A stretch of DNA of 64,000 nt from an uncultured Planctomycetia bacterium (lineage in GTDB: Bacteria; Omnitrophota; Gorgyraeia; Tantalellales; Tantalellaceae), in the NCBI GenBank assembly GCA_964527555.1, contig CAZGOG010000005.1:5863-69862 (forward strand), given 5' to 3'. Position 1 is the first letter of the stretch; each line of letters starts with the position of its first letter. The position numbers and the translations under genes were made by a program. Below the pieces are notes generated by a model. The model was given only the letters and a program-made list of their open reading frames with translations. It was not told the DNA's origin and did not search any database. Below, piece after piece: positions 16,274-56,730 of the stretch.

Positions 16274-17491
16274 ATGAAAAACAATCTTAAACCGGAACTG
16301 GTAGCTCCTGCAGGGGACTGGTCTTCACTTTCCAGTGCCGTATCTTCTGGCGCTGATGCTGTCTATTTCGGCATCAAAGGAATAAACATGCGTCACGGAG
16401 CCAGTAATTTCGATGTCCTTGAACTTAAGAAAGTAATGGCCCTCCTGCATAAAATGGGCAGGAAGGGATACCTGGCTTTAAATGTGCTTGTTTATAATAA
16501 TGAAATCAGTAAGATACGGGGGATACTTGAAGAAGCAAGTAGAAGCGGGGTTGATGCAGTTATCCTCTGGGACATGGCTGTTTTATCTCCGGCAAGAGAG
16601 CTGGGTCTTAAAACACATCTATCCACACAGGCAAGTGTCTCGAATCTCGAGGCGTTAAAATTCTACTCTGACCTGGGAGTGGAAAGAATAGTGTTAGCCA
16701 GGGAATGCAGTCTCGATGATATACGGCAAATAATCTCCGGGATAGAGAGGGAGGGTATCTCTTGCGGCGTGGAGACCTTTATCCATGGCGCCATGTGCCT
16801 GAGTATATCCGGAAGGTGCCTTCTTTCGTATGATTCTTTTTCAAAATCTGCTAACAGGGGAGAATGCATCCAGCCGTGCAGGAGGGAATTTATGGTTACG
16901 GATTCCCAGGAAGAATGCCGGTATATACTCGGAGAGGACTACGTATTAAGCCCGAAAGACCTTTGCACCATTAGTTTTATTGATAAACTTATACTTTCGG
17001 GGGTAAATGCGTTTAAGATAGAGGGACGCATGCGTTCTCCGGAGTACGCCAAGATAACTACTTCTGTGTACAGGGAAGCGATTGATGCTTTTAGCGAGGG
17101 GAAGCTGGATGAAAAACTGAAAGGGGAGCTTTTGAATACACTCAAGAAGTCTTTTAACAGGGGTTTTTCAGACGGCTTTTATTTTAAGAAAGCGAAGGAT
17201 CTCGGGGGAAAACTTCAGAACAATTATGAAAAGGTTTATCTGGGCGAAGTCGTGAAATTTTATAAAAGAATAAGAGTTGCCGAAATTGCGATAACAAACG
17301 AATCTTTAAAAAAAGGGCAAAAGATTCTAGTGACCGGCAAGAACACTCCTGCCGCCTTTTCTATGGTGGAAGAGATGCAGATAGACCATAGAGAGGTCGA
17401 CTTTGTCCCACGGGGCAAAGCAGTAGGCATCAAATTACCTTTTAAAGTAAGGCCAAAGGATAAAGTGTTTCTTTGGCATGAGAAAGCGTAG
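16274..17491 (+). CDS. Peptidase U32 family protein (collagenase-like)
   Basis: Conserved U32 N-terminus 'ELVAPAGDW...AGADAVYFG' and C-terminal beta-barrel domain. Confidence 0.8.
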   Translation: MKNNLKPELVAPAGDWSSLSSAVSSGADAVYFGIKGINMRHGASNFDVLELKKVMALLHKMGRKGYLALNVLVYNNEISKIRGILEEASRSGVDAVILWDMAVLSPARELGLKTHLSTQASVSNLEALKFYSDLGVERIVLARECSLDDIRQIISGIEREGISCGVETFIHGAMCLSISGRCLLSYDSFSKSANRGECIQPCRREFMVTDSQEECRYILGEDYVLSPKDLCTISFIDKLILSGVNAFKIEGRMRSPEYAKITTSVYREAIDAFSEGKLDEKLKGELLNTLKKSFNRGFSDGFYFKKAKDLGGKLQNNYEKVYLGEVVKFYKRIRVAEIAITNESLKKGQKILVTGKNTPAAFSMVEEMQIDHREVDFVPRGKAVGIKLPFKVRPKDKVFLWHEKA

Positions 17492-17500
17492 AGCTAAGAA

Positions 17501-18103
17501 GTGCCTGATATTATCGAGGAAAAATTCAATAAATGGACCGGGGGATGTTCCCCGGAAAAAGCCCGGATAAAGATATTCGAGGAAATACGGGATATTCCTT
17601 TCAGCGTAGTGCCGGAACTTTTCAGTCTTGATAAAGGACCAAGGGGGATGCTTGAGGAAAACAGGGGATTCTGCGTGCCTAAGCATTATCTATTGGGTAT
17701 GATGTATCAGAAGCTGGGGGTGCCTGTCAGATATCATACTTATTCATTCAGATGGAGTGAGATAGATGTAGATTACCCGCAAGATTTAAAAAAACTTGCC
17801 AAGAGAGCGTCTGTAACCTACCACTTGGCGTGTAAAGCTTTTATCGAAAAGAGGTGGGTTTTGATAGATGCCACATGGGACAGCCCCTTAAAGAAAACGG
17901 GATTTTTGGTAAATGAAGATTGGGACGGGAGAAGCCCGATGAAAAATGCCGTTAAACCGCTGGAGGAGTTTATTCACGAGGATGCCCGCCAGAGGGATAT
18001 TGTATTTCAGGAAAAACTGGCTTTATATACATTGGAAGAGAAACTGGAGCTTTCAAGGTTTTCTCTCGGGCTCAATCAGTGGCTTGAAGAGCTGAGGAAG
18101 TGA
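17501..18103 (+). CDS. Transglutaminase-like (papain-fold) domain protein
   Basis: Candidate Cys-His-Asp triad ('GFCVPKHY', 'TYHLAC', 'LIDATWD'). Confidence 0.45.
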   Translation: MPDIIEEKFNKWTGGCSPEKARIKIFEEIRDIPFSVVPELFSLDKGPRGMLEENRGFCVPKHYLLGMMYQKLGVPVRYHTYSFRWSEIDVDYPQDLKKLAKRASVTYHLACKAFIEKRWVLIDATWDSPLKKTGFLVNEDWDGRSPMKNAVKPLEEFIHEDARQRDIVFQEKLALYTLEEKLELSRFSLGLNQWLEELRK

Positions 18104-18161
18104 CGCGTTAACGGAGAAAGCTCTTGGCATTTATTTGTTTTATTCAAGTTTTTGTGATACC

Positions 18162-18290
18162 TTTTACCCATGCACCAGAAGGCCACGCCCGTAAGGGCGT
18201 GGATGAATGGCCTTCGGTGCAGGGTTCCGCTTGACGGAAAGACTGAAACTGTGGATTCCATGGGCGTTAGCCCATGGAGCTTCACAAGGT
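18162..18290 (+). repeat. Family-1 structured intergenic repeat, copy B
   Basis: About 97% identical to copies C and D. Contains three hairpins and ends 40 nt before the ATG at 18331. Confidence 0.85.
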
Positions 18291-18330
18291 GTTGTTTTGT
18301 GGAGAGGTGAGGCAAAAAAAGGAGGGTAAG

Positions 18331-18573
18331 ATGAAGCTGAGTGTAAAGGCGTTTGCTCTGGCAGGTGGAATCTTGTGGGGATTAGCCGTATTTATTCTTA
18401 CGTGGCTAAAAATAATGGGGTACGGGGGAGAACTTACCCTCATCAAGTCGTATTATATCGGATATTCAGTTACCCCGTTAGGAAGCGTGATAGGCGCAGT
18501 TTATGGATTTTTCGATGCCGGCATCGGTTGCGCTATCTTTGTACTGCTGTATAACAAACTTGCAGAGAAATAA
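18331..18573 (+). CDS. Small membrane protein (80 aa)
   Basis: RBS 'AGGAGG' and two TM helices. The upstream part of the tracked ORF (18274) is a read-through of the repeat. Confidence 0.45.
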   Translation: MKLSVKAFALAGGILWGLAVFILTWLKIMGYGGELTLIKSYYIGYSVTPLGSVIGAVYGFFDAGIGCAIFVLLYNKLAEK

Positions 18574-18603
18574 ATAATCCCTTAATATCGGCATTTGCTA
18601 TCA

Positions 18604-18654
18604 ACAAGCATCCGGAACTTAAAATTTCCGGATGCTTGTTTTATAAGTAAAGCT
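18604..18654 (+). terminator. Rho-independent terminator
   Basis: Stem 'ACAAGCATCCGGAA' / 'TTCCGGATGCTTGT' followed by TTTT. Confidence 0.7.
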
Positions 18655-18822
18655 TTTAAAATGATCATAGTATCTTAGCGGCTAAGCTAAGTTTAATAAC
18701 TACAATAATACCCGCTCCAATATTAAAATGAAGTTTAAAGTTGCATTGACGTGCAGCATTGTTTTTTTAGCCGCTTCGTGGTAAACTCTCACTATTATTC
18801 ATCAAAAAAACGGAGGCATGTT

Positions 18823-19470
18823 ATGATAGACCTGCATACTCATACCATATTAAGTGACGGTGATCTTATCGCCAGTGAGCTTGTAAGGCGCGCAGAGGTC
18901 GCCGGATGTAATGTAATAGCAATTACCGACCATGTAGATCATTCAAATATTGATGTAGTCCTGCCCGGGATTGTAAAAGCATCTAAAATACTTAACAAAT
19001 TTTGGGATATTTTTGTTGTTCCGGGAGTTGAAATAACACATGTGCCGCTTGAGGTGTTTAGTGAGCTTACTAAATATGCCCGGGTAAATGGCGCTAAAAT
19101 AGTTGTCGGTCACGGTGAGTCTTCCGTAGAGCCAGTAATACCGGGGACCAACGCCGCCGCTATAAATGCCGGTGTAGATATCCTGGCGCATCCGGGTTTT
19201 ATCAGCGAGAAAGATGCCCGTCTTGCCGAGGAGAAGGGTGTTTATCTTGAGATTACATCCCGCAATGGTCATTCCGAGACAAACAAACACGTTTTTGCCA
19301 TGGCATCTAAGGCCGGGGCCAAACTGGTCTTAAATACAGACACGCATTCTCCGGAAGATATTCTCACTCCGGAAAAAAGAGACGAGATCCTGGGATTTTT
19401 GACTGACTCCGATGAGATTAAGTCTGGCATTATCCGTAACTCGGAAGAGATAGTTGATAAACTTCGGTGA
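18823..19470 (+). CDS. PHP-domain phosphoesterase (histidinol-phosphatase family)
   Basis: 'IDLHTHT' and 'ITDHVDH' metal-binding motifs. RBS 'GGAGG' lies 6 nt upstream of the ATG. Confidence 0.75.
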   Translation: MIDLHTHTILSDGDLIASELVRRAEVAGCNVIAITDHVDHSNIDVVLPGIVKASKILNKFWDIFVVPGVEITHVPLEVFSELTKYARVNGAKIVVGHGESSVEPVIPGTNAAAINAGVDILAHPGFISEKDARLAEEKGVYLEITSRNGHSETNKHVFAMASKAGAKLVLNTDTHSPEDILTPEKRDEILGFLTDSDEIKSGIIRNSEEIVDKLR

Positions 19471-19540
19471 AACGGTTTATTCCAAAGTATTGATCTAAAG
19501 ATTTAGTTCTCTTAACAGCAATTTTTTATTGTTCTTATTC

Positions 19541-19568
19541 TTGACAGGCAGAGATTTCATGATATACT
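19541..19568 (+). promoter_or_regulatory. Sigma-70-type promoter (TTGACA-N16-TATACT)
   Basis: Near-consensus hexamers about 260 nt upstream of the outer-membrane protein gene start. Confidence 0.5.
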
Positions 19569-19825
19569 TTCAATCAAAGTTACGCATATTTTAAAACGTT
19601 TTTCCGGACGTTTTAAAATAATGCTGTTTTGTTCTTTGCAACTTGCATGTACCGCCGAGACGATTTCGATTCTGGCAAAGAAAGGGGGGAGGAAATAAGA
19701 GAATTTTTTCACATGCCGGAAGTTGTCAATTATTTGAGGCGATACTTATATAGACAAATAAGGGCAGAAAAAACTGCTCGTTTAAATAACGATTTACAAG
19801 CAATAGTTACCTTTAAGGAGGTAAA

Positions 19826-21337
19826 ATGAAGTTGTTAAAAGTATTGTGCGTTGTGGCGCTGGTATTCGCAGTTTCTGCGATAGCATACGCCGAAACGCAG
19901 AGCGTGAAGGTAAGCGGTGATATCACAATGCGCGCCTTCGCAAGACAGAACTATGATTTGGTGGATCAGGACGTTGAGTTCGATCCATTGGGAATTGGCG
20001 GACTTGGCGAGCGTTCAACTGACTGGGCGACTTTTCTGCAGAGTACAGCAGAAGTCCAGGTTGACGCAGACCTTACCGACAATGTCTCTGGTGTTATCAG
20101 ACTCGTAAACCAGAGAGTTTGGGGCGATGACCTGTATACGAACGAAGTTACCGGTGAGATACAGCAGATGACCCCGAACGGGATGATGTACTTTGACGGT
20201 GCCGGTCTAACTGGTGGAGTACCCTTTAAGACCACCAACCCGATCACTGAGAACGCTTTCAGTGTTCAGCTTGACCTGGCATATATCGAACTGAAAGAGT
20301 TCCTGTATTCTCCTTTGACACTCAGGATAGGTCGTCAGGACCTTTGGTTTGGTAGAGGATTCATCATCGGCGCCAACATGCAGGATCCGGGTTGGAACCT
20401 GTATGCAATGGAATACACAGCGATCAGATCTTTTGATGCCGTTCGCGCAACATTGGATTATGATCCCTGGACGATCGATGCAGTATTCGCAAAGATCAGT
20501 GAAAACGCGATGGAAGCCGACGATGATATAAACCTCTGGGGTGTTAACGTAGGTTACGTTTTCGATTCTTACAACGGTGAAGTGGAAGCTTACTGGTGGT
20601 TCAAGCAGTCCAGGAACCCGGGCCCGGCAACACTGCTCGGCATACTGGGTACAGATATGACCAGCTTTACGAACTCAAACGTTCTTGACAACAGCGTTCA
20701 TGTACTTGGTGGTCGCGGTAGCTTCGATCCGATCGAAGACGTTACAGTCGCTCTTGAAGGTGCCTATCAGACAGGTGCGTACATGATACCGAACCAGACG
20801 AACAAAAGAACCAGGAATGCATGGGCATTGGATGCTATGATCGAATTTCGTACTTTCCAGGACAGTATGGCTTGGAGGCCTGTTTTAGGTTTTGAGTATA
20901 TTTTCTACTCAGGCGAAAAGGATCTTGGCAATCAGACTGTTGCTTCAACTGGTGATTACGAAGGTTGGGACCCGATGTTCAGAGGCAAGTTTGACACTGC
21001 CATCAGAGAGTTCCAGAACGTATATTACACAACAGCTCAGGCATCTACACCGTCCTTCACTAACCAGCATCAGGTGCTGGTAAGAGGTACTGTAGAGCCG
21101 ACAGACAGCCTTACATTCGATGCAGTATATGCACATTTCTGGCTTGCTGAAGATTTCATCACGACTAACACCAAGAGAAACATTGGTGACGAAGTTGATC
21201 TTCAGCTGACATGGGATTACACGGAAGACGTATCATTTGGTCTTTTGGCCGCATGGTTCATTCCGGGTACTTTCTTCCAGAACCAGCAGGACGATGTCGC
21301 TACCGATATCGTTGCTACTGCAAAACTTAGCTTCTAA
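19826..21337 (+). CDS. Outer-membrane beta-barrel protein (porin/alginate-export-like)
   Basis: Signal peptide 'AIAYA|ET', alternating amphipathic strands and a C-terminal '...KLSF' Phe typical of outer-membrane proteins. Confidence 0.6.
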   Translation: MKLLKVLCVVALVFAVSAIAYAETQSVKVSGDITMRAFARQNYDLVDQDVEFDPLGIGGLGERSTDWATFLQSTAEVQVDADLTDNVSGVIRLVNQRVWGDDLYTNEVTGEIQQMTPNGMMYFDGAGLTGGVPFKTTNPITENAFSVQLDLAYIELKEFLYSPLTLRIGRQDLWFGRGFIIGANMQDPGWNLYAMEYTAIRSFDAVRATLDYDPWTIDAVFAKISENAMEADDDINLWGVNVGYVFDSYNGEVEAYWWFKQSRNPGPATLLGILGTDMTSFTNSNVLDNSVHVLGGRGSFDPIEDVTVALEGAYQTGAYMIPNQTNKRTRNAWALDAMIEFRTFQDSMAWRPVLGFEYIFYSGEKDLGNQTVASTGDYEGWDPMFRGKFDTAIREFQNVYYTTAQASTPSFTNQHQVLVRGTVEPTDSLTFDAVYAHFWLAEDFITTNTKRNIGDEVDLQLTWDYTEDVSFGLLAAWFIPGTFFQNQQDDVATDIVATAKLSF

Positions 21338-21357
21338 GTTTATTTAAACTTGGAAAG

Positions 21358-21398
21358 CAAAAAACCCCGGTTTGCTTTAAAGCGAACCGGGGTTTTTA
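21358..21398 (+). terminator. Rho-independent terminator
   Basis: 'AAAACCCCGGTT...AACCGGGGTTTTT' GC-rich stem with a T tract. Confidence 0.8.
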
Positions 21399-21511
21399 TA
21401 TCCCCCCGAGAATAAAGCCCACAGTAAGTCTTTTGTTGACTTTCAGCGCATAAAGATTAGAATATAATCTAATAATAGTGATATTTATACACTACCACTA
21501 AAAAGGAGGGT

Positions 21512-21871
21512 ATGATGCAGCAGGATGCTCAAAAAAAATCACCCGAGAAAAAGAAGGCGCCCGGCGCCTCAGATTCCGGAGAAATGGTATACGCGGTGCT
21601 TGCATATCTATGGATTCTCTGCCTTGTTCCGATCCTCATGAAAAAAGAGGACGAATTTGTAAAATTCCATACACGTCAGGGGCTTATGCTTTTTATTGTT
21701 GAAGTGGCGTTCGGGATAATAGCCATCGTGCCGATACTCGGAGCGGTTACCTATATACTCGGGATTCTTATCTGCGGGATTCTTTCCCTTATAGGCATTG
21801 TTCAGGTGTTGATGGGCAATAAGTGGAAGATGCCCCTTATCGGTGAATGGGCCGAGAAAATAAAGATATAG
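21512..21871 (+). CDS. Small membrane protein (DUF4870-like)
   Basis: 'FVKFHTRQG' motif and TM helices. Confidence 0.45.
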   Translation: MMQQDAQKKSPEKKKAPGASDSGEMVYAVLAYLWILCLVPILMKKEDEFVKFHTRQGLMLFIVEVAFGIIAIVPILGAVTYILGILICGILSLIGIVQVLMGNKWKMPLIGEWAEKIKI

Positions 21872-37485: not shown

Positions 37486-38577
37486 TTATTTAGCCATCGC
37501 GTAAGTTGAGCACTTTTTGTATCCCTTGTAATTTGCTTGTATGACCTCTTGAGCCGGTTTATTTTGCGGCGTAAACTGTCTGTTGTACTCTCCCCCGGCA
37601 TTTATGTTTGTATCCCATTTCCACCAGTATACCCCCGCAAGCCAAGGTTCGTTCCATATGGTCTGGAAAAACGCTTCGTAGCACCTGGCCTGTATTTCCG
37701 GGTCGGCATTTCCGCATGTGCCCCCTTTCCAGGGAGTGTAAGGAGCATGCGGAGTGCTTGCATAACCTATTTCAGTGAAGATGATGGGTTTATTGACCTG
37801 GACTTGCCAGGTTTCGATTTCGTATTTCCACTTTTCCCATCCCTTCTTAAGGTCTTCGATCGTCGGGGCAGATTCATATGTAAGCGGAAAGTAAGCATCT
37901 ATACCCACGTAATCCAGTATATCCCAGAACTTAATGTTCTTGAAATTGTCCCAGTTAGCGGCATAGACGAGTTCTCCCGAGTAGATCTTTTTTACCTCTT
38001 CGATTATTGTACGCCACTCGGAATCTTTCTGTGTGGTAAAGGAGAGCTCCGTTCCCACGCAGAAGAGTTCCACTTTTTCCTTTTCAGCCATCTTCGCATA
38101 GTGAGTTATGTTTTTCTTATATTCCAGGAACCACTTCTTCCAATCATCTTCAGTGTTGAATCCGATATCAGCACGCCAGTAAGTGCCGTCATATTTATCG
38201 AGAAGATCAATGTGGGGTTTGAGCATGACTTTAAGTCCCAGCGTATGGGCGCGTTTGATTGTATGGACTATGCTTCTATCGCTGGGAGTTTGGTCTGTAG
38301 GTTTTATTTCCGTGGAATTATATTGTTCCTGGTATAGCGTCACGCATATTGAGAGGTATTCTACTCCCAGGGACGCGAGTTTCTCCAGGGATTCGTCAGA
38401 GTATTGGGAAGCAAATCTTTCTTTTTCCCAGGTCACGTAACACATACCTTTTTGTGGCAGGAATAGTGTCGTTTCGGAAAATACCGGAAGCACGGGAGAG
38501 AATTGGTATATCGCAAAAACCATTGCGACGAGAACATATAGCGCATTTGTTTTCTTTTTAAGTCGTTGGATCTTCAT
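37486..38577 (-). CDS. Secreted clan GH-A glycoside hydrolase (GH113/GH26/GH5-like TIM barrel)
   Basis: Signal peptide and candidate catalytic motifs 'GTEL' and 'FTEIGY'. Confidence 0.55.
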   Translation of the reverse strand: MKIQRLKKKTNALYVLVAMVFAIYQFSPVLPVFSETTLFLPQKGMCYVTWEKERFASQYSDESLEKLASLGVEYLSICVTLYQEQYNSTEIKPTDQTPSDRSIVHTIKRAHTLGLKVMLKPHIDLLDKYDGTYWRADIGFNTEDDWKKWFLEYKKNITHYAKMAEKEKVELFCVGTELSFTTQKDSEWRTIIEEVKKIYSGELVYAANWDNFKNIKFWDILDYVGIDAYFPLTYESAPTIEDLKKGWEKWKYEIETWQVQVNKPIIFTEIGYASTPHAPYTPWKGGTCGNADPEIQARCYEAFFQTIWNEPWLAGVYWWKWDTNINAGGEYNRQFTPQNKPAQEVIQANYKGYKKCSTYAMAK

Positions 38578-39014
38578 TTTCTTGCCTTCCTTTCCGCAAA
38601 ACCCGTTTTGACAAAGGCAAGACCCTGTGGATAGGCTTACAAAAAGTTAGCAGAAAATGATGATCCAAGAGTTTCAGTTTCGGCAGTCTGACGACCATGT
38701 CCCCAAAAGGGGAGTTAGGCTCATGACTTTGCGTCCTATCCTTTAGGATAGTTTGCCTTTATCGTCTATAAACAAGTTTTTTAAAGAGCTTTTGCGATCT
38801 CAATTATAAGCTTAATGATAAAAAAACAAAAAGCAAGATGGAAAAACAAACTTTTTAATATTTAACTTTGATCGAGATTTTAGTATAATTTAAACGCAAA
38901 ATCAAAGAGATTTCCATAGTTGTAAAATTTCATTTGTCTTTCAGGTACTATTTTTATATAATCTATTGCACCAAAAGTGCAAAAGGTCTTGTATAAAATA
39001 CGCAAGGAGAAAAA

Positions 39015-50140: not shown

Positions 50141-51019
50141 TTAGCTTCGCGTATTCTCGGGGGGATAGACAGTCACATTGTCGATATAGACAGGTCCTGA
50201 GTAGATCATGTTTTTTTCCGCTTCGATCCTTACCGCTATCTTACGCACGTCCGACTTGAATTTTTTATCTACTTTAGTTTTCTTCCAGTCGATACTACCC
50301 TCAGAGATGTTTGCTATTATGGTTGTCCATTCTCCCGGTTTTAGACGGATACTGCGTGACATCTCGACAAACTCCCAGCTATCGCCTGTAGAAAGTATAA
50401 TTTTGCCCCTGAGGCCTTCCGGGCATCCGGGGGGAAGGTAGACGTCTACGGTTATTGCAGCGTATTCATTGAGGTCCAGGTACTGCTGGATCTCGATAAG
50501 TGCCGCTTTCCAGTTTTCTCCCGAAAAATCCGTGTAAAGTTCCAGGCTTCCGCTACCCTTGCTGGCGAAATTACCGCACTTTTGCAGGGAACTGGCCGCA
50601 TAATCTTTTTCGTCAAATTCCCATGCCGGTATCTCCCAGCCCTCGGTGCCATTTTCAAAATCGTAAAGGTTTTTCCCGCTGGAAAGATCGGGCTGCTGCG
50701 GGGTTATATCAAGGTCGTACTTTCCGGTGGCAGCTATTTCCTTAGGAGCGGTTTCTTTGGGGCTTTTGAGCTGGGTTTGAGTACGGCTTTCCTTCCCGCG
50801 GGGTTCTACGTCGACATTTATAGAAAAAGTCACGCGGTTGCGGGTGAAGAAATACACCCCAAGGCAAATCAGGCAGACAAGAACGGCAAGGGATATGAGG
50901 ATAAGCCTGATCCGCGCGGCTTTGAGGCTTGAACTAGGGCGCTTTTTTCTCTTGCCGGAAGCAAAATACGTTTTTGAAAGTTCAAGATCTATCCTGTCGG
51001 GTGTTCTGTTTTTATCCAT
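50141..51019 (-). CDS. Membrane-anchored protein with a putative carbohydrate-binding beta-sandwich domain
   Basis: N-terminal TM helix and a 'DFENGTEGW' CBM-like motif. Confidence 0.4.
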   Translation of the reverse strand: MDKNRTPDRIDLELSKTYFASGKRKKRPSSSLKAARIRLILISLAVLVCLICLGVYFFTRNRVTFSINVDVEPRGKESRTQTQLKSPKETAPKEIAATGKYDLDITPQQPDLSSGKNLYDFENGTEGWEIPAWEFDEKDYAASSLQKCGNFASKGSGSLELYTDFSGENWKAALIEIQQYLDLNEYAAITVDVYLPPGCPEGLRGKIILSTGDSWEFVEMSRSIRLKPGEWTTIIANISEGSIDWKKTKVDKKFKSDVRKIAVRIEAEKNMIYSGPVYIDNVTVYPPENTRS

Positions 51020-51258
51020 AATATGCAGAAATGAAGGTGACCTCGTCTATACATGACCGGATGCAGCTTGATTGGCGAAACGGGATCATTCTATCACAAT
51101 TGCTATTTTATATGCATAAAAAAATGATGATTATGGGAAAAGATATTTTCGCTTTATCTATTTACAGATAATATCCGATATGCTATACTTCTAACCAAAT
51201 AGCACAACATGTATGTATTATTAGTTTTACAACCACAAAATACATGGGGGAGTGAGAG

Positions 51259-52302
51259 ATGAAAATCATTTCGATTTCGAACCAAAAAGGCGGTTGCGGG
51301 AAAACGACACTAGCGGTAAATGTTGCGGCAGCACTTGCAAAAATGGGAGGCCAGACGCTTCTCATCGACATGGATCCTCAGGCGCATGCGACCTTCGCTC
51401 TGGGGTATAATAAAAAGCCCTCCGGTATAAAAACCTCATATGATATTTTTCGCGCTCACTTCGATAATACTAAAATACCTTTTGACGATATACTAATTTC
51501 TGACAGAGAAAAACTTTCTTTTATACCCGCCAATATGATGCTTTCGGCGGCGGAGATAAACCTGGGCGGAGTTAATGGCGCGGCGTCGATACTTTCCCGT
51601 ACTTTATCCGACACTTTTTTTGATAAATTCGAATATGTGATCATTGACTCTCCCCCGAGTTTCGGGTTTCTCACGCTGAATTCCATGTATGCCGCCACTA
51701 TGATTCTTGTGCCTATGGATTTGAGTTATTTTTCGTTTAACGGCATAAACAGCGTATATAGGGTGGCCAGCCTTCTAAACGCGGAGGCGGGCAGAAACCC
51801 CTCGATCTACTTTACCATGAACATATATGATCAGCGGTCGAATTTCGCAAAGCAGCTTAACATCGACGCGAAGACTAAACTGGGCCCGTATCTGCTTCCT
51901 ACTGTGATACGTTCAAGCGTGCGTTTAAGGGAAGCTGCCAAAGTAGGCAAAACCATATTTGAATATGACCCCAAATGTTCAGCCGCTTTGGATTTTTATA
52001 ATCTTACCAGTGAGATTCTTACGGTTGACAGCAAAGAGGTAGACGCATCTATTAAAGAGTTTGTACTTCATGCTCCCGAAGCCGGGTCTGTATACATCCT
52101 TGGGGATTTCAATAACTGGAAGAAATCAGAGGCCAACCGGCTCACTAAACTCGAAAATGGGCACTGGTCAGCGCACTTCACCCTCGATAAGGGAAACTAC
52201 CGTTATAAATTTTTAGTCGATGACGAGTGGATCCCCGATCCGGAAAACCCCGAGACCCAGGTAAACGATTTCGGCACGATCGATTCCATCCTGAAGATAT
52301 AA
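51259..52302 (+). CDS. ParA/MinD-type ATPase fused to a C-terminal CBM48 (AMPK-beta glycogen-binding) domain
   Basis: Deviant Walker A 'NQKGGCGKTT'. The C-terminus 'YILGDFNNW...YKFLVDDEWIPDPENP' matches the CBM48 consensus. Confidence 0.7.
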   Translation: MKIISISNQKGGCGKTTLAVNVAAALAKMGGQTLLIDMDPQAHATFALGYNKKPSGIKTSYDIFRAHFDNTKIPFDDILISDREKLSFIPANMMLSAAEINLGGVNGAASILSRTLSDTFFDKFEYVIIDSPPSFGFLTLNSMYAATMILVPMDLSYFSFNGINSVYRVASLLNAEAGRNPSIYFTMNIYDQRSNFAKQLNIDAKTKLGPYLLPTVIRSSVRLREAAKVGKTIFEYDPKCSAALDFYNLTSEILTVDSKEVDASIKEFVLHAPEAGSVYILGDFNNWKKSEANRLTKLENGHWSAHFTLDKGNYRYKFLVDDEWIPDPENPETQVNDFGTIDSILKI

Positions 52303-52490: not shown

Positions 52491-53438
52491 ATGTCACAGC
52501 CCATCGTTTACCCGAAGAAGAAAGAAAATATCGCGGTGCGTTATCCCAAAAACCCCATCCTTACGAAGGACGATGTACCCGCCGCAGCAAAAGGCGTGTA
52601 TAACTCGGGTTGCATAAAAATTGCTGACGGCCAGTATGTAATGCTCTGCCGCGTCGAGACGCCGTCGATGAAACAGCTGATATGGCCGGCAGACTCGAAA
52701 GACGGCATAAAGTTTGTCCTGCGCCCCGAGCCCATAAGGATGCCGGATGACGATAATTTTAAAGAGTATACGACCGGCATGTACTATGATCCGCGCGTAA
52801 CCGAGATAGAAGGGAAGTATTATACGGTATTCGCCTGCCATAGCGGTCATTCATGCCGTCTGGGGCTCCTGGAGTCGGCGGACATGAAAGAGTTCAAATG
52901 GCGGGGATTTATTTCCGAGACGGATAACCGTAACGGCGTTCTTTTTCCCGAGAAAATAGGGGGTTTCTATTGCCGCCTGGATAGACCCAATACCGGAGAC
53001 GGTAAAGCGTACATGTGGGTTTCTTATTCGCCTGATCTTATCCACTGGGGGCAGGCCAAAGCCGTGGCGCATGCACAGGATGAATGGGGATGGAAAAAGA
53101 ACGGATCCGGGGCGGTCCCCATAAAGACAGATAAAGGGTGGCTGGTTATTTATCATGCCGTTAATGTCCAGTGTGCCGCGCAGTATGTATACCACATAGG
53201 CGTCATGCTTCTTGACCTCAGGGATCCGTCCAGGATAGTCGCAAGGTCAAAGGCCCCGATACTTTCCCCGGTCATGGATTATGAACTTATGGGACTTACG
53301 TATGCTGTTGTTTTTACCTGCGGCGCTGTTTTGGAGGATAACGGCGAAGTGAAGATATATTACGGCGGGGCCGACACCGTCCAGTGCCTGGCGACCGCAA
53401 AACTTGAAGACCTTGTTGATGCGTGTTTTAACCGGTAG
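52491..53438 (+). CDS. Glycoside hydrolase family 130-like glycoside phosphorylase
   Basis: N-terminal 'KNPILTKDD...YNSG' and 5-bladed beta-propeller features. Confidence 0.6.
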   Translation: MSQPIVYPKKKENIAVRYPKNPILTKDDVPAAAKGVYNSGCIKIADGQYVMLCRVETPSMKQLIWPADSKDGIKFVLRPEPIRMPDDDNFKEYTTGMYYDPRVTEIEGKYYTVFACHSGHSCRLGLLESADMKEFKWRGFISETDNRNGVLFPEKIGGFYCRLDRPNTGDGKAYMWVSYSPDLIHWGQAKAVAHAQDEWGWKKNGSGAVPIKTDKGWLVIYHAVNVQCAAQYVYHIGVMLLDLRDPSRIVARSKAPILSPVMDYELMGLTYAVVFTCGAVLEDNGEVKIYYGGADTVQCLATAKLEDLVDACFNR

Positions 53439-53466: not shown

Positions 53467-53886
53467 ATGGCGATTTTTAAGGTAACAGCTCTTAAAGAGA
53501 AAGCGCTTAAGGAGCGAATGCGCCGTTTCGGCGTGAAAGAGAAGGATTTAAAAGAGCGTTTCATAAGGTCGAGCGGCCGGGGCGGGCAGAACGTCAACAA
53601 GGTTTCCACGTGCGTGTATTTAAAACATATCCCCAGCGGGATAGAGGTCAAATGCGCCAGAGAGCGTTCCCAGGCCATGAACCGGTTCCTGGCAAGGCGC
53701 ATACTGGTCGGTAAAATAGAAGAGGCGATACTCGGCCGGGCCTCGGAGGAAAGAAAGCGGATAGAGAAGATCCGCCGCCAGAAACGCAAAAGATCGAAAC
53801 GCGCGAAAGAAAAGATGCTGGCTGATAAGAAGAAGAAATCGGAGAAGAAAAAACTGCGCAAGACGCCTTGGGACGGAAATCATTAA
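53467..53886 (+). CDS. arfB: Peptidyl-tRNA hydrolase ArfB (alternative ribosome rescue factor B)
   Basis: 'SSGRGGQNVNKVST' GGQ motif and a basic C-terminal tail. Confidence 0.75.
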   Translation: MAIFKVTALKEKALKERMRRFGVKEKDLKERFIRSSGRGGQNVNKVSTCVYLKHIPSGIEVKCARERSQAMNRFLARRILVGKIEEAILGRASEERKRIEKIRRQKRKRSKRAKEKMLADKKKKSEKKKLRKTPWDGNH

Positions 53887-53896
53887 TACCTGAAAG

Positions 53897-54142
53897 ATGA
53901 AGAAACTAAAACTGGACCTTCACGATATATATAACAAACACGGCAAGATCGAAAACGCTCTTAGGGATATACTCAGCGAGGCACGCGCCAAACGCGTCAA
54001 GATAGTCGAGATCATTCCTGGCAAGGGTTCCGGAGCGCTTAAAAAAAAGGTGCTAAAATTCCTGGAGAGGAACCGGGACCTGTATGACAGGGTCGATAAG
54101 GATTCAAAAAACTGGGGAAGACTTTTTGTGCGTTTCAAATAG
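53897..54142 (+). CDS. Smr domain protein
   Basis: 'LDLH...IIPGKGSG' Smr motifs; 81 aa. Confidence 0.6.
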   Translation: MKKLKLDLHDIYNKHGKIENALRDILSEARAKRVKIVEIIPGKGSGALKKKVLKFLERNRDLYDRVDKDSKNWGRLFVRFK

Positions 54143-56292: not shown

Positions 56293-56730
56293 ATGCCGCA
56301 TCACGAAAGACGACGTTATATCCGACATCTCTTAGTTAACCCGCTTGAGTTTCAGATCGCCGATAAAGAAGATTTTGAGAAGACCGAGACGGTTGATGTA
56401 AGTGAAGGGGGCCTCATGTTCATGTCTAAGCGGCGCGTCTCACCCGGGACAGTTATAAGGCTTCAGATGCCGCTATATGACAAGATCTTCAAGATAAAAG
56501 CAGCAGTCGTACATGCCACAAAAGATGCAGCAACGGGTCTATATAAAATAGGCGTTTCATTTTTAAGTTACGCCGATGCCTTCAAGGTAAAGCTTATCGA
56601 ACAGATATATCTAATAGAAGAATACCGCGTTTTACGTTCCCTCCAGCTGGGCAAGGAAATGTCGCTTCAGGAAGCCTCCAAGGAATGGATAAAGAGATAT
56701 TCCGAAAGATTCCACAAACTCTACTGGTAA
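56293..56730 (+). CDS. PilZ domain protein
   Basis: 'RRRYIRH' and 'DVSEGGLMF' motifs. Confidence 0.6.
   Translation: MPHHERRRYIRHLLVNPLEFQIADKEDFEKTETVDVSEGGLMFMSKRRVSPGTVIRLQMPLYDKIFKIKAAVVHATKDAATGLYKIGVSFLSYADAFKVKLIEQIYLIEEYRVLRSLQLGKEMSLQEASKEWIKRYSERFHKLYW

What the first reader, a model, noticed from the sequence alone, without database searches (positions are those of the whole stretch)
51259..52302. ParA/MinD-type ATPase fused to a CBM48 glycogen-binding domain: possible positioning system for a polysaccharide granule
The N-terminal ~250 aa form a ParA-type partition ATPase with the deviant Walker A 'KGGCGKTT'. The last ~85 aa match the AMPK-beta/CBM48 glycogen-binding consensus ('YILGDFNNW', 'YKFLVDDEWIPDPENP', 'GTIDSIL'). 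ParA-like ATPases are established as positioning systems for cargos such as plasmids, carboxysomes (McdA) and PHB granules. A glucan-binding module fused directly to the ATPase would provide the cargo adaptor itself. I am not aware of this architecture having been described. The flanking genes are a GH130 glycoside phosphorylase (52491-53438) and, on the opposite strand, a membrane-anchored CBM-like protein (50141-51019).
Basis: partly seen in the sequence, partly recalled or inferred. Interest (0 to 1): 0.7.

Follow-up and report, generated by a model that had tools for sequence, protein, structure and literature searches.

The report
Glycogen-binding ParA ATPase with dedicated partner
This gene encodes a ParA-type positioning ATPase permanently fused to a glycogen-binding module and paired with a neighbouring protein carrying a ParB-like activating peptide; this widespread, apparently undescribed two-gene system probably organises glycogen inside bacterial cells.

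Summary
Window 51259-52302(+) is an intact 347-aa ORF: a Soj/ParA-like deviant-Walker-A ATPase (aa 1-258) joined by about 4 residues to an AMPKβ-type CBM48 (aa 263-347). Both halves pass Pfam's curated cut-offs. The fusion is not an artefact: the identical protein lies on 21 contigs, and 203 distinct full-length homologues keep the catalytic, DNA-contact and sugar-stacking residues.

It is not rare. At least 588 stretches in GTDB species genomes matched the search patterns and encode a relative of the query, and nearly all of the best 80 are full-length fusions. Their record titles name Omnitrophota, Myxococcota, Desulfobacterota and others.

New here: the fusion almost always sits beside a partner whose N-terminus carries a ParB-like peptide. 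In non-Omnitrophota clades it reads LGRGLEDIS-FFLS; in the window's partner (50141-51019, minus strand) it reads RIDLELSKTYF. That partner is a single-pass membrane protein with an extracytoplasmic CBM27-like domain. Partner type tracks ATPase clade. A sister clade places a GH57 amylopullulanase-like gene in the same cassette.

GH130 is only a facultative neighbour. The best reading is a two-component ParA system acting on cytoplasmic α-glucan. The mechanism is inferred, not shown. No paper describing it was found.

The parts
51259..52302 (+). ParA-CBM48 fusion gene (347 aa plus stop codon)
   Evidence: ORF; Pfam domains; 203 distinct full-length homologues; identical protein on 21 contigs
51259..52032 (+). 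Soj/ParA-type ATPase domain (aa 1-258). It has the deviant Walker A N8-Q-K10-G-G-C13-G-K15-T-T, D37/D39, and Walker B D130. DNA-contact equivalents are R193, K198, R222, R224 and K239.
   Evidence: alignments to BsSoj-type, TtSoj and HpSoj sequences; HpSoj K199/K227/K230/K247; CcParA R195/R224; conservation counts
52045..52299 (+). AMPKβ-type CBM48 (aa 263-347), joined directly to the last ATPase helix. Sugar-platform residues are W287, K317 and W324, plus W303, Y316, D327 and S343.
   Evidence: aligned to AMPK β1/β2 CBM; secondary structure; W287 203/203, W324 202/203, K317 K/R 191/203; β2 W99 is a key glycogen-binding residue
50141..51019 (-). Partner gene: 292-aa bitopic membrane protein, transcribed divergently from the fusion
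   Evidence: present next to the fusion in 14 of 19 clade-A loci (the rest lack upstream sequence); distantly related to the c15 and c1 partner families of other clades; 82 homologues, those that carry a source name almost all Omnitrophota
50963..50995 (-). Partner N-terminal cytoplasmic helix R9-IDLELSKTYF-19. This is the proposed ParA-interacting, ParB-like peptide. It is followed by the basic stretch GKRKKRP.
   Evidence: I10/E13/L14/T17/Y18/F19 are the only conserved residues in the first 120 aa of 20 partners. The model predicts a helix at aa 9-19. The motif is shared with the c1 and c15 partners and with the downstream LGRGL-type partners. HpParB N-terminal MAKNKVLGRG binds HpParA.
50840..50926 (-). 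Partner transmembrane helix (aa 32-60), with predicted N-in topology
   Evidence: AF2 helix 32-60; hydrophobicity scan; basic residues cluster on the N-terminal side
50165..50674 (-). Partner extracytoplasmic β-sandwich CBM-like domain (aa 116-285)
   Evidence: Pfam Mann_GBD_bact 31.6 bits and CBM27 22.8 bits. pLDDT above 90. Foldseek top hits are a mannanase CBM (1wky, 5.9e-10) and CBM27 (1pmj/1pmh, 1e-8), then CBM11 and CBM28. Paralogues of about 196 aa carry signal peptides.
51020..51258 (.). Divergent intergenic region shared by partner and fusion, with a promoter-like site at 51161-51189 (+) and an SD sequence at 51247-51253
   Evidence: The promoter count is not above the shuffled expectation, so this is only suggestive.
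52491..53438 (+). GH130 glycoside phosphorylase. It is a facultative downstream neighbour and probably not a core part.
   Evidence: Pfam 6e-50; below every NCBIfam equivalog cut-off. Present in 13 of 19 clade-A loci and absent from other clades.

Best explanation
This is a two-gene ParA-type system dedicated to cytoplasmic α-glucan (glycogen).

Shown at sequence or structure-prediction level: the ATPase is a Soj/ParA-like deviant-Walker-A enzyme with all residues needed for ATP binding, sandwich-dimer formation and hydrolysis. It retains most basic residues that Soj/ParA use to bind non-specific DNA. Its C-terminal helix runs straight into an AMPKβ-type CBM48 whose sugar-stacking residues are invariant. 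The neighbouring gene encodes a partner whose cytoplasmic N-terminus carries a short conserved peptide related to the ParB N-terminal peptide.

Inferred mechanism: each ATPase monomer is bound to glycogen through its CBM48. With ATP, the ATPase dimerises and binds the nucleoid. This tethers and spreads glycogen particles over the chromosome, so they do not pile up at a pole and are shared between daughter cells. The partner's N-terminal peptide binds the ATP dimer and triggers hydrolysis and release, giving turnover and directionality as ParB, McdB and MinE do.

In the window's lineage (Omnitrophota) the partner is an inner-membrane protein with an extracytoplasmic CBM27-like domain, so release or docking would happen at the membrane. 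In other phyla the same peptide heads soluble proteins.
For: Architecture and fold.

Conservation in 203 distinct fusions:
- K10, G11, K15 and D37 are 100% conserved; D39 and D130 are 202/203.
- R193 (= BsSoj R189 / CcParA R195) is 201/203. R222 (= HpSoj K230 / CcParA R224) is basic in 185/203. R224 is basic in 201/203.
- W287 is 203/203, W324 is 202/203, and K317 is K/R in 191/203.

Link to α-glucan:
- A GH57 gene (Pfam 2e-61; closest PDB match is the GH57 amylopullulanase 8ZYI, E 1e-88) lies in the locus in 29 of 106 loci. In one clade it lies in 27 of 40 loci, in the order GH57, partner, fusion.
- Phosphoglucomutase lies within 5 kb in 5-6 deltaproteobacterial-type loci.
- Omnitrophota MAGs, including Tantalella remota (76% identical orthologue), encode glycogen synthesis.

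Partner:
- 66 of 97 loci have a single-TM partner immediately upstream or divergent.
- The three TM-partner families are distantly related: hhalign 97.6% for c1-c15, 79% for c15-c24, but only 54% for c1-c24.
- In loci without a TM partner, the ORF starting -52 to +50 nt after the fusion begins with K-x-LGRGL[ED][DE][IV]S-x-FFLS or a variant. This matches HpParB 1-MAKNKVLGRG-10, whose L7 and R9 contact ParA.
- A 7-mer core motif occurs in 59/164 adjacent ORFs against 20/1439 background ORFs.
- Partner type tracks ATPase clade: 40/40 in the c1 clade, 14/17 in the window's clade, 8/12 in the c15 clade.
- The cassette is relocatable. The window keeps the PHP, porin and c5 backbone without the cassette.

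Biological rationale: unpositioned glycogen accumulates at old poles in E. coli and excludes the chromosome.
Against: - No biochemical or localisation data exist; every functional step is inferred.
- The activator sits in the membrane in Omnitrophota rather than on the cargo. This does not fit the textbook Brownian-ratchet geometry.
- Two HpSoj DNA-contact positions are not kept. HpSoj K227 aligns with S219, with an Arg shifted one residue earlier. K239 is conserved only in the window's clade.
- The CBM follows the C-terminal helix that lies near the DNA-binding face in Soj, so it could interfere with DNA binding. I could not inspect the model coordinates.
- Candidatus Aadella gelida carries an orthologue (P0052, 73% identity), but its 91%-complete MAG was annotated with trehalose synthesis and not glycogen synthesis.
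- No glycogen gene lies in the 64-kb window, among all long ORFs checked.
- The motif regex was derived after seeing the sequences, so its P value is inflated.
- The residue equivalent to HpSoj F52 does not co-vary with partner class.
Confidence: 0.5

Rival explanations
1. Glycogen is the matrix rather than the cargo (MinD-like logic). ATP-driven dimerisation brings two CBM48 modules together, much as MinD dimerisation pairs two membrane-targeting helices. This gives avid, switchable binding to the glycogen surface. The ATP dimer then recruits the partner through its N-terminal peptide. In Omnitrophota that would dock granules to the inner membrane beneath an extracytoplasmic glycan-binding domain. 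Hydrolysis releases them.
For: The CBM replaces the position where MinD carries its C-terminal membrane-targeting helix, directly after the last ATPase helix. The partner is membrane-anchored in 66 of 97 loci. Some HpSoj DNA-contact residues are not conserved (K227 equivalent is S219; K239 is clade-specific). Partner bodies are very diverse (TM-CBM, soluble, HTH-containing), as expected if the partner is the thing being recruited.
Against: R193, R222 and R224, the equivalents of the best-validated ParA DNA-binding arginines, are almost invariant. That would be unexpected if DNA binding had been abandoned. There is no direct evidence for avidity-driven glycogen binding.
Confidence: 0.22
2. It is a glycogen-sensing regulatory switch rather than a positioning motor. 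The CBM48 reports glycogen status, as in AMPK, to a ParA/MipZ-like ATPase. The ATPase then controls another process, for example access of GH57 or other enzymes to the granule, or cell division.
For: In AMPK, carbohydrate binding to the homologous CBM modulates the enzyme. In the window's clade the gene lies about 4.6 kb upstream of mraZ and the dcw cluster in conserved synteny. GH57 lies in the same cassette in another clade.
Against: Proximity to the dcw cluster is confined to one closely related clade and is interrupted by variable genes. Other clades show no division genes nearby. A dedicated partner with a ParB-like peptide is the hallmark of ParA positioning and partition systems.
Confidence: 0.13
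3. It is simply the organism's chromosome-partitioning ParA (Soj), which happens to carry an extra domain.
For: The closest solved structures are chromosomal Soj/ParA. Some databases name relatives 'chromosome partitioning protein ParA'. Non-Omnitrophota partners start with the LGRGL motif typical of ParB.
Against: NCBIfam ParA_partition scores 97 bits against a cut-off of 180. No parB or any other ParA-like gene lies in the 64-kb window. The partners lack Pfam ParB domains. The fusion occurs in Myxococcota. From my own knowledge, not tested here, members of that phylum have a canonical ParABS. The Walker A Cys (KGGCGKT) is invariant in fusions (99/99) but is V in 18 of 24 non-fusion ParA hits.
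Confidence: 0.05
4. It is an assembly or frameshift artefact that joins two genes.
For: None found.
Against: The identical protein is on 21 independently assembled contigs. There are 203 distinct full-length homologues with a constant short junction.
Confidence: 0.01

Closest known systems
Chromosomal ParA/Soj with ParB/Spo0J (ParABS)
   Same: Same ATPase fold and motifs: signature Lys, Walker A, A' and B. The closest PDB relatives are 8ray, 1wcv and 6iub. The key DNA-binding arginines are conserved. The partner carries an N-terminal peptide, and in several clades it is literally K-x-LGRGL as in ParB.
   Different: A CBM48 is fused to the C-terminus. The partner is not a ParB: it has no ParB or HTH-CTPase domains and in Omnitrophota is a membrane protein with an extracytoplasmic CBM. 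The gene is not next to parB. It scores below the NCBIfam ParA_partition cut-off. It has an invariant Cys in Walker A.
McdA/McdB carboxysome positioning system
   Same: An orphan ParA-type ATPase that distributes a non-DNA cytoplasmic cargo over the nucleoid, with a small dedicated partner encoded next to it.
   Different: McdA reaches its cargo only through McdB. Here the cargo-binding module is covalently part of the ATPase and the partner is not obviously on the cargo. McdA is a more distant match (E 1e-14, against 1e-33 for Soj).
MinD/MinE
   Same: A deviant-Walker-A ATPase whose C-terminal appendage gives ATP-dimer-dependent binding to a surface. A partner peptide triggers release.
   Different: The C-terminal amphipathic membrane helix is replaced by a glucan-binding domain. 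There are no MinC or MinE genes. The sequence is closer to Soj than to MinD.
AMPK β-subunit CBM and other CBM48/CBM20 glycogen tethers (plant PTST proteins, STBD1)
   Same: The CBM is closest in sequence to the AMPK β1/β2 CBM (E 1e-9), with the Trp/Lys/Trp sugar platform conserved. The logic is the same: a CBM brings a non-glycolytic machine to glycogen or starch.
   Different: Here it is fused to a bacterial P-loop positioning ATPase rather than to a kinase scaffold, a coiled coil or an autophagy receptor.
PhaM/PhaF-type nucleoid tethers of PHB granules (from my own knowledge, not tested here)
   Same: The proposed outcome is the same: storage granules attached to the nucleoid so that they are distributed to daughter cells.
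   Different: Those proteins are passive DNA- and granule-binding proteins without an ATPase cycle.

Membership tests
ParA/MinD (deviant Walker A) ATPase superfamily | Deviant Walker A KGGxxK[ST] with the N-terminal signature lysine | tested here: met
   N8-Q-K10-G-G-C-G-K15-T-T. K10, G11 and K15 are 203/203.
ParA/MinD (deviant Walker A) ATPase superfamily | Walker A' catalytic Asp and Walker B Asp | tested here: met
   D37 is 203/203, D39 (= Soj D40) is 202/203, and D130 is 202/203.
ParA/MinD (deviant Walker A) ATPase superfamily | Characteristic α/β fold | tested here: met
   AF2 pLDDT 87.8. Foldseek against 8ray, 1wcv and 2bej gives TM 0.88-0.92 (target-normalised) and rmsd 2.0-2.4 Å.
ParA/MinD (deviant Walker A) ATPase superfamily | ATP-dependent dimerisation, and ATPase stimulated by a partner peptide | not testable with these tools
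   A candidate partner peptide was found. The activity itself needs biochemistry.
Chromosome-partition ParA (Soj) of ParABS | Scores above the curated equivalog threshold | tested here: not met
   NCBIfam NF041546 ParA_partition scores 97.2 bits against a cut-off of 180.
Chromosome-partition ParA (Soj) of ParABS | Encoded next to a parB/spo0J gene | tested here: not met
   Neighbours are the TM-CBM partner and GH130. No ParB domain was found in the window ORFs scanned. No second ParA lies in the window.
Chromosome-partition ParA (Soj) of ParABS | Basic residues for non-specific DNA binding | tested here: inconclusive
   R193, R222 and R224 are conserved. K198 is basic in 143/203. The HpSoj K227 equivalent is Ser. 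K239 is conserved only in the window's clade. Binding itself was not tested.
CBM48 / AMPK1_CBM glycogen-binding module | Scores above the Pfam gathering thresholds | tested here: met
   PF16561 scores 47.9 against 26.8. PF02922 scores 30.5 against 22.4.
CBM48 / AMPK1_CBM glycogen-binding module | Aromatic and Lys sugar platform (AMPK β1 W100/K126/W133; β2 W99) | tested here: met
   W287, K317 and W324 align to these residues and are 203/203, 191/203 (K/R) and 202/203. The role of W99 is documented. The roles of K126 and W133 come from my own knowledge of Polekhina et al. 2005.
CBM48 / AMPK1_CBM glycogen-binding module | Actual binding to α-1,4/α-1,6 glucans | not testable with these tools
   Needs pull-down or ITC with glycogen or β-cyclodextrin.
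MinD | C-terminal amphipathic membrane-targeting helix, with minC/minE neighbours | tested here: not met
   The C-terminus is a β-sandwich CBM. NCBIfam minD_bact scores 42.6 bits against a cut-off of 212.9. There are no min genes nearby.
McdA (carboxysome) | Encoded with mcdB and carboxysome genes | tested here: not met
   No such neighbours. McdA structures are a weaker match (E 1e-14).
BcsQ (cellulose synthase localisation) | Scores above the equivalog cut-off and lies in a bcs operon | tested here: not met
   TIGR03371 scores 74.5 bits against a cut-off of 157.85. There are no bcs genes nearby.

The most novel reading that the evidence does not exclude
The module is a trans-envelope coupling device, and it would be the first ParA-type system whose matrix or cargo is a polysaccharide. 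The partner's extracytoplasmic CBM27-like domain binds or senses an envelope or environmental glycan (mannan-type in the window's clade). Its cytoplasmic ParB-like tail switches the ParA-CBM48 ATPase. In this way glycogen granules are docked, released or nucleated at defined membrane sites, or glycogen itself replaces DNA as the surface on which the ATPase cycles.
Probability: 0.2. Interest if true: 0.85.

Novelty: new variant of a known kind. Interest (0 to 1): 0.72.

Why it matters
It is essentially unknown how bacteria place and inherit glycogen, their most common carbon store. In E. coli glycogen simply collects at old poles and can crowd out the chromosome.

A dedicated ATPase-plus-partner module with a built-in glycogen-binding domain, found across several phyla, would be the first candidate active system for organising a polysaccharide store. 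It would extend the ParA/MinD cargo list (DNA, carboxysomes, chemoreceptor arrays, flagella) to carbohydrates.

The module gives directly testable reagents:
- a 347-aa soluble ATPase;
- a roughly 30-residue partner peptide;
- point mutants predicted from conservation.

The finding also defines a new family of partner proteins marked only by a short N-terminal ParB-like peptide. This marker could be used to find ParA partners elsewhere.

Tried and rejected
- GH130 as a functional partner: rejected as core. It is present in only 13 of 19 loci of the window's own clade, absent from all other clades, and sits within a block of conserved synteny that explains its presence.
- Alginate_exp porin (c3) and small membrane protein (c5) as parts of the system: rejected. 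In the window they sit next to each other at 19826-21871 without the cassette, so in the sister clade the cassette lies inside a pre-existing backbone.
- Family size from the representative library, using aa 200-347 as query: confounded. The 1044 hits at E<=1e-10 are dominated by proteins with 3-18 tandem AMPKβ-type CBMs, so no clean count of fusions was obtained.
- AFDB50 fold search for named or cultured carriers: the library was unavailable.
- Co-variation between partner class and the ATPase residue equivalent to HpSoj F52, which contacts ParB R9: no clear pattern. It is Y in the window's clade and I/V elsewhere, including the LGRGL class.
- Promoter and terminator scan around the gene pair: counts are not above the shuffled expectation. 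There is one good promoter-like site upstream of the fusion and no plus-strand terminator before GH130.
- Intergenic repeats: only short AT-rich matches, not convincing operators.
- Source names for the window protein and distant fusions: none recorded.
- BY-kinase (Wzc/CapB-like) reading: rejected. The match is weak (TIGR01007, 36.9 bits against a cut-off of 108), and I saw no Tyr cluster in the C-terminal sequence.
- Whether the same genome also has a canonical ParAB pair or glg genes could not be checked.
Full report
**1. The observation.**
Window 51259-52302 (+) is a single 347-aa ORF with an ATG start and a GGAG ribosome-binding site. Pfam assigns aa 1-175 to AAA_31 (E 1.9e-42) and aa 4-232 to CbiA. 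The C-terminus goes to AMPK1_CBM (aa 275-346, 47.9 bits against a cut-off of 26.8) and CBM_48 (aa 265-324, 30.5 against 22.4).

By sequence, the N-terminal domain is closest to solved chromosomal ParA/Soj proteins: 8ray at 2.4e-33, Thermus Soj 1wcv at 3.4e-32, and Helicobacter Soj 6iub at 7e-29. McdA is far weaker, at 1e-14. The C-terminal 89 aa are closest to the AMPK β1/β2 carbohydrate-binding module (1.2e-9).

An AlphaFold2 model built on 13 homologues is confident (pLDDT 87.8, pTM 0.83). It shows the last ATPase helix (aa 241-258) running after about 4 residues into a β-sandwich (aa 263-346). Foldseek places the ATPase part on Soj/ParA structures with target-normalised TM of 0.88-0.92.

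**2. The fusion is real and widespread.**
The identical protein is encoded on 21 contigs from several JGI and SRA samples. About 100 clusters of 60-85% identity, those with a source name all labelled Omnitrophota, have the same length and domains. A second tier at about 40% identity does too.

Almost all of the best 80 cover residues 1-341 of the query. Their record titles name Omnitrophota, 'Planctomycetia' MAGs, Myxococcota, Desulfobacterota/Deltaproteobacteria, Eisenbacteria, Margulisiibacteriota, Spirochaetaceae and Rokubacteria. A JGI metagenome scan added further full-length copies. Intact full-length ORFs were recovered in 108 loci.

**3. Conservation says both halves are functional.**
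I examined 203 distinct full-length fusions.
- Nucleotide-binding and catalytic residues: the signature Lys K10, G11, the Walker A Lys K15 and D37 are invariant. D39 (= Soj D40) and the Walker B residue D130 are 202/203.
- ParA DNA-contact positions, mapped through the alignments and the residues reported for HpSoj and CcParA: R193 (= BsSoj R189 / CcParA R195) is 201/203. R222 (= HpSoj K230 / CcParA R224) is basic in 185/203. R224 is basic in 201/203. K198 (= HpSoj K199) is basic in 143/203. The HpSoj K227 equivalent is Ser, with an Arg one residue earlier. K239 (= HpSoj K247) is kept only in the window's clade.
- CBM residues: W287, which aligns with AMPK β1 W100 / β2 W99 (a key glycogen-binding residue), is 203/203. 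W324 is 202/203. K317 is K/R in 191/203.

The Walker A Cys (KGGCGKT) is invariant in fusions. This includes 18 of 18 found with search patterns that did not contain it. Non-fusion ParA hits mostly have Val at that position.

**4. A conserved partner.**
I clustered neighbour ORFs over all loci.

In one large clade, mostly labelled Omnitrophota, the fusion lies in the gene order Alginate_exp porin, GH57, c1, fusion, c5, c2. The c1 protein is about 190 aa and ends about 22 bp before the fusion starts. In a second clade the upstream gene is c15, of about 260 aa. In the window's clade it is the divergently transcribed 50141-51019 gene, here called c24.

All three have the same layout: a short cytoplasmic N-terminus, one TM helix, a variable linker and a β-sandwich. 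They are distantly related. hhalign gives 97.6% for c1-c15 and 79% for c15-c24, but only 54% for c1-c24, and the HMMs cross-hit. Of 97 loci with enough upstream sequence, 66 have such a partner.

Their N-termini share a short motif ahead of a Lys/Arg-rich stretch:
- c1: DIYEHLAKIYLDASSKKKK
- c15: EQLADIYFS
- the window protein: RIDLELSKTYFASGKRKKRP

In an alignment of 20 window-type partners, I10, E13, L14, T17, Y18 and F19 are the only conserved positions in the first 120 residues.

The loci without a TM partner are mainly Myxococcota, Desulfobacterota and other phyla. There, the ORF that starts -52 to +50 nt after the fusion begins with one of these peptides:
- KLGRGLSDVSRFFLS
- SLGRGLEDISQIFLS
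- PLGRGLEDVSHLFLS
- PRSLEDISHFFLS
- M-P-R-D-L-A-D-V-L-H-Y-F

The protein bodies that follow are unrelated to one another. Some have no Pfam match and two carry an HTH.

K-x-LGRGL is the ParB N-terminal signature. In the HpParA-DNA-ParB(1-10) structure the peptide MAKNKVLGRG binds ParA through L7 and R9. A simple 7-mer core, [ILV][SAC]x[ITVF][FYW][LFI][SDAGTNP], occurs in the first 110 aa of 59 of 164 adjacent ORFs against 20 of 1439 other ORFs. I derived this pattern after seeing the sequences, so the P value is optimistic. With obvious variants, about 84 of 99 loci carry such a neighbour.

Partner type follows the ATPase clade: 40/40 for c1, 14/17 for c24, 8/12 for c15, and downstream-peptide types in the remaining clades. 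Together this is the signature of a co-evolving ParA-partner pair.

**5. The window's partner.**
AlphaFold2 predicts a helix at aa 9-19 (the motif), a disordered basic segment, a TM helix at aa 32-60, a disordered linker, and a confident β-sandwich at aa 116-285.

The top structural matches of the sandwich are the CBM of an alkaline mannanase (1wky, 5.9e-10) and mannan-binding CBM27 (1pmj/1pmh, 1e-8), followed by CBM11 and CBM28. This agrees with the Pfam hits Mann_GBD_bact and CBM27.

Paralogues of about 196 aa, found mainly in Omnitrophota, carry this domain behind a signal peptide. NCBI names some of them 'glycan-binding surface protein'. This, together with the basic residues clustered N-terminal to the TM helix, indicates an N-in, C-out topology. 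The CBM-like domain is therefore extracytoplasmic and the ParB-like peptide is cytoplasmic.

**6. Link to α-glucan.**
The c4 gene is a GH57 enzyme (Pfam 2.3e-61). Its closest solved relative is a GH57 amylopullulanase that cleaves α-1,4 and α-1,6 bonds (8ZYI, E 1e-88). It lies in the locus in 29 of 106 loci, and in 27 of 40 in the c1 clade. Phosphoglucomutase recurs within 5 kb in the deltaproteobacterial-type loci, together with an upstream MerR-type regulator. Published Omnitrophota MAGs, including Tantalella remota, which has a 76% identical orthologue, encode glycogen synthesis.

Caveats:
- The Aadella gelida MAG has an orthologue but was annotated only with trehalose synthesis.
- The window itself contains no glycogen gene.

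**7. What is not part of it.**
GH130 follows the fusion in 13 of 19 loci of the window's clade. It is missing in 6 and absent from all other clades. The whole region (AddA-like helicase, HD-OB, partner, fusion, ±GH130, ArfB-like, Smr, SNF, PC4, PilZ, mraZ-dcw) is syntenic among close relatives, so the adjacency carries little weight.

The porin (c3) and the small membrane protein (c5) of the sister-clade operon have homologues in the window at 19826-21871. These sit adjacent to each other, preceded by the same PHP gene, without the cassette. The relocatable unit is therefore partner plus ATPase, with or without GH57.

**8. Mechanism.**
Shown at the level of sequence or predicted structure: an ATPase-competent Soj-like enzyme, a CBM48 with an intact sugar platform, and a co-evolving neighbour with a ParB-like N-terminal peptide.

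Inferred: the CBM keeps the ATPase on glycogen. The ATP dimer binds nucleoid DNA through the conserved arginines. The partner peptide triggers hydrolysis and release. The net effect would be to distribute glycogen particles and ensure their inheritance. E. coli shows the cost of unpositioned glycogen: it piles up at the old pole and excludes the chromosome.

The main rival keeps all parts but swaps the roles. Glycogen would be the surface on which the ATP dimer binds avidly through two CBMs, as MinD does on membrane. The membrane partner would be what gets recruited, docking granules to the envelope. The near-invariance of R193, R222 and R224 favours retained DNA binding. The position of the CBM and the membrane location of the partner favour the rival. 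I put the two at about 0.5 and 0.2. A purely regulatory role and a plain chromosomal ParA are less likely. An artefact is excluded.

**9. Novelty.**
Five full-text searches combining ParA, ParA-like, McdA, CBM48, AMPK1_CBM, glycogen and carbohydrate-binding module found no description of this architecture or of the partner family. Databases label the proteins 'AAA family ATPase' or 'chromosome partitioning protein'.

It is a new variant of a known kind, the ParA/MinD positioning ATPases. The cargo- or matrix-binding module is built into the ATPase, and it comes with a new class of partners recognisable only by a short ParB-like peptide.

Noticed in passing
window 38679-38767 (-), upstream of 37486-38577 (-): A c-di-GMP-I riboswitch (Rfam RF01051, 77.7 bits against a gathering score of 35) sits directly upstream of a GH113 (β-mannanase family) gene. 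Together with GH130, the CBM27-like partner domain and a PilZ gene at 56293-56730, this suggests c-di-GMP-controlled mannan handling in this organism.
   Followed up: no
protein representative library, e.g. P0203, P0204, P0209-P0214: The AMPKβ-type CBM48 of this protein has many bacterial relatives in which it occurs as tandem arrays: typically 4 copies in proteins of about 480 aa, and up to 18 copies in an 1812-aa protein. 1044 representatives have E<=1e-10. These multi-CBM48 proteins look like another uncharacterised class of glycogen-binding proteins.
   Followed up: no
P0144, P0151, P0157, P0193: Proteins of about 196 aa, mainly from Omnitrophota, consist of a signal peptide plus the same CBM27-like domain as the partner (about 50% identity). 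NCBI names some of them 'glycan-binding surface protein'. So the partner's ectodomain has free secreted paralogues.
   Followed up: partly
window 17501-21871; compare L044, L047 and L054: The window keeps the backbone PHP (18751-19470), Alginate_exp porin (19826-21337) and c5 small membrane protein (21512-21871). In the sister clade this backbone is interrupted by the GH57, partner and ParA-CBM48 cassette between the porin and c5. The cassette therefore occupies different genomic positions in different lineages.
   Followed up: partly
L029:4286-4705 and 33 other loci (cluster c2): A protein of about 140 aa is conserved about 350 bp downstream of the fusion in the c1 clade. It has a histone-H1-like poly-Lys/Ala/Pro N-terminus and a C-terminal domain resembling the C-terminus of U32 peptidases (it hits window 16274-17491, E 2.6e-14). 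It could be a nucleoid-associated component of the system.
   Followed up: no
L062, L072, L084, L108, L111, L121, L124, L128, L131: In the Myxococcota and deltaproteobacterial-type clade a MerR-family HTH gene lies immediately upstream of the fusion. Phosphoglucomutase, an ECF sigma factor, a CysZ/EI24-like protein and an ATP-cone P-loop protein recur within 5 kb.
   Followed up: partly
L080:6024-6875, L084:1979-2842, L129, L131 (clusters n6 and n1): The soluble downstream partners of about 280 aa have, after the ParB-like peptide, a region that looks like a degenerate P-loop/ParA-like fold (for example 'ILSPASPSMQAFFTANLVLEMARRRL'). They have no Pfam match. They may be pseudo-ATPase adaptors.
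   Followed up: no
L001:1561-7809: In one Omnitrophota relative a 2082-aa ORF with no Pfam hit is inserted between the partner gene and the fusion gene. L095 and L096 also show insertions at this spot.
   Followed up: no
L086 / L168 (Ga0180433_10022273): A contig carrying a 100% identical fusion gene has the downstream GH130 split into two ORFs (210 and about 140 aa). This is a frameshift or an assembly variant relative to the window.
   Followed up: no
window 53467-54142: An RF-1-domain protein of 139 aa (ArfB-like peptidyl-tRNA hydrolase) and a stand-alone 81-aa Smr-domain protein lie side by side downstream of GH130. They are syntenic across the clade.
   Followed up: no
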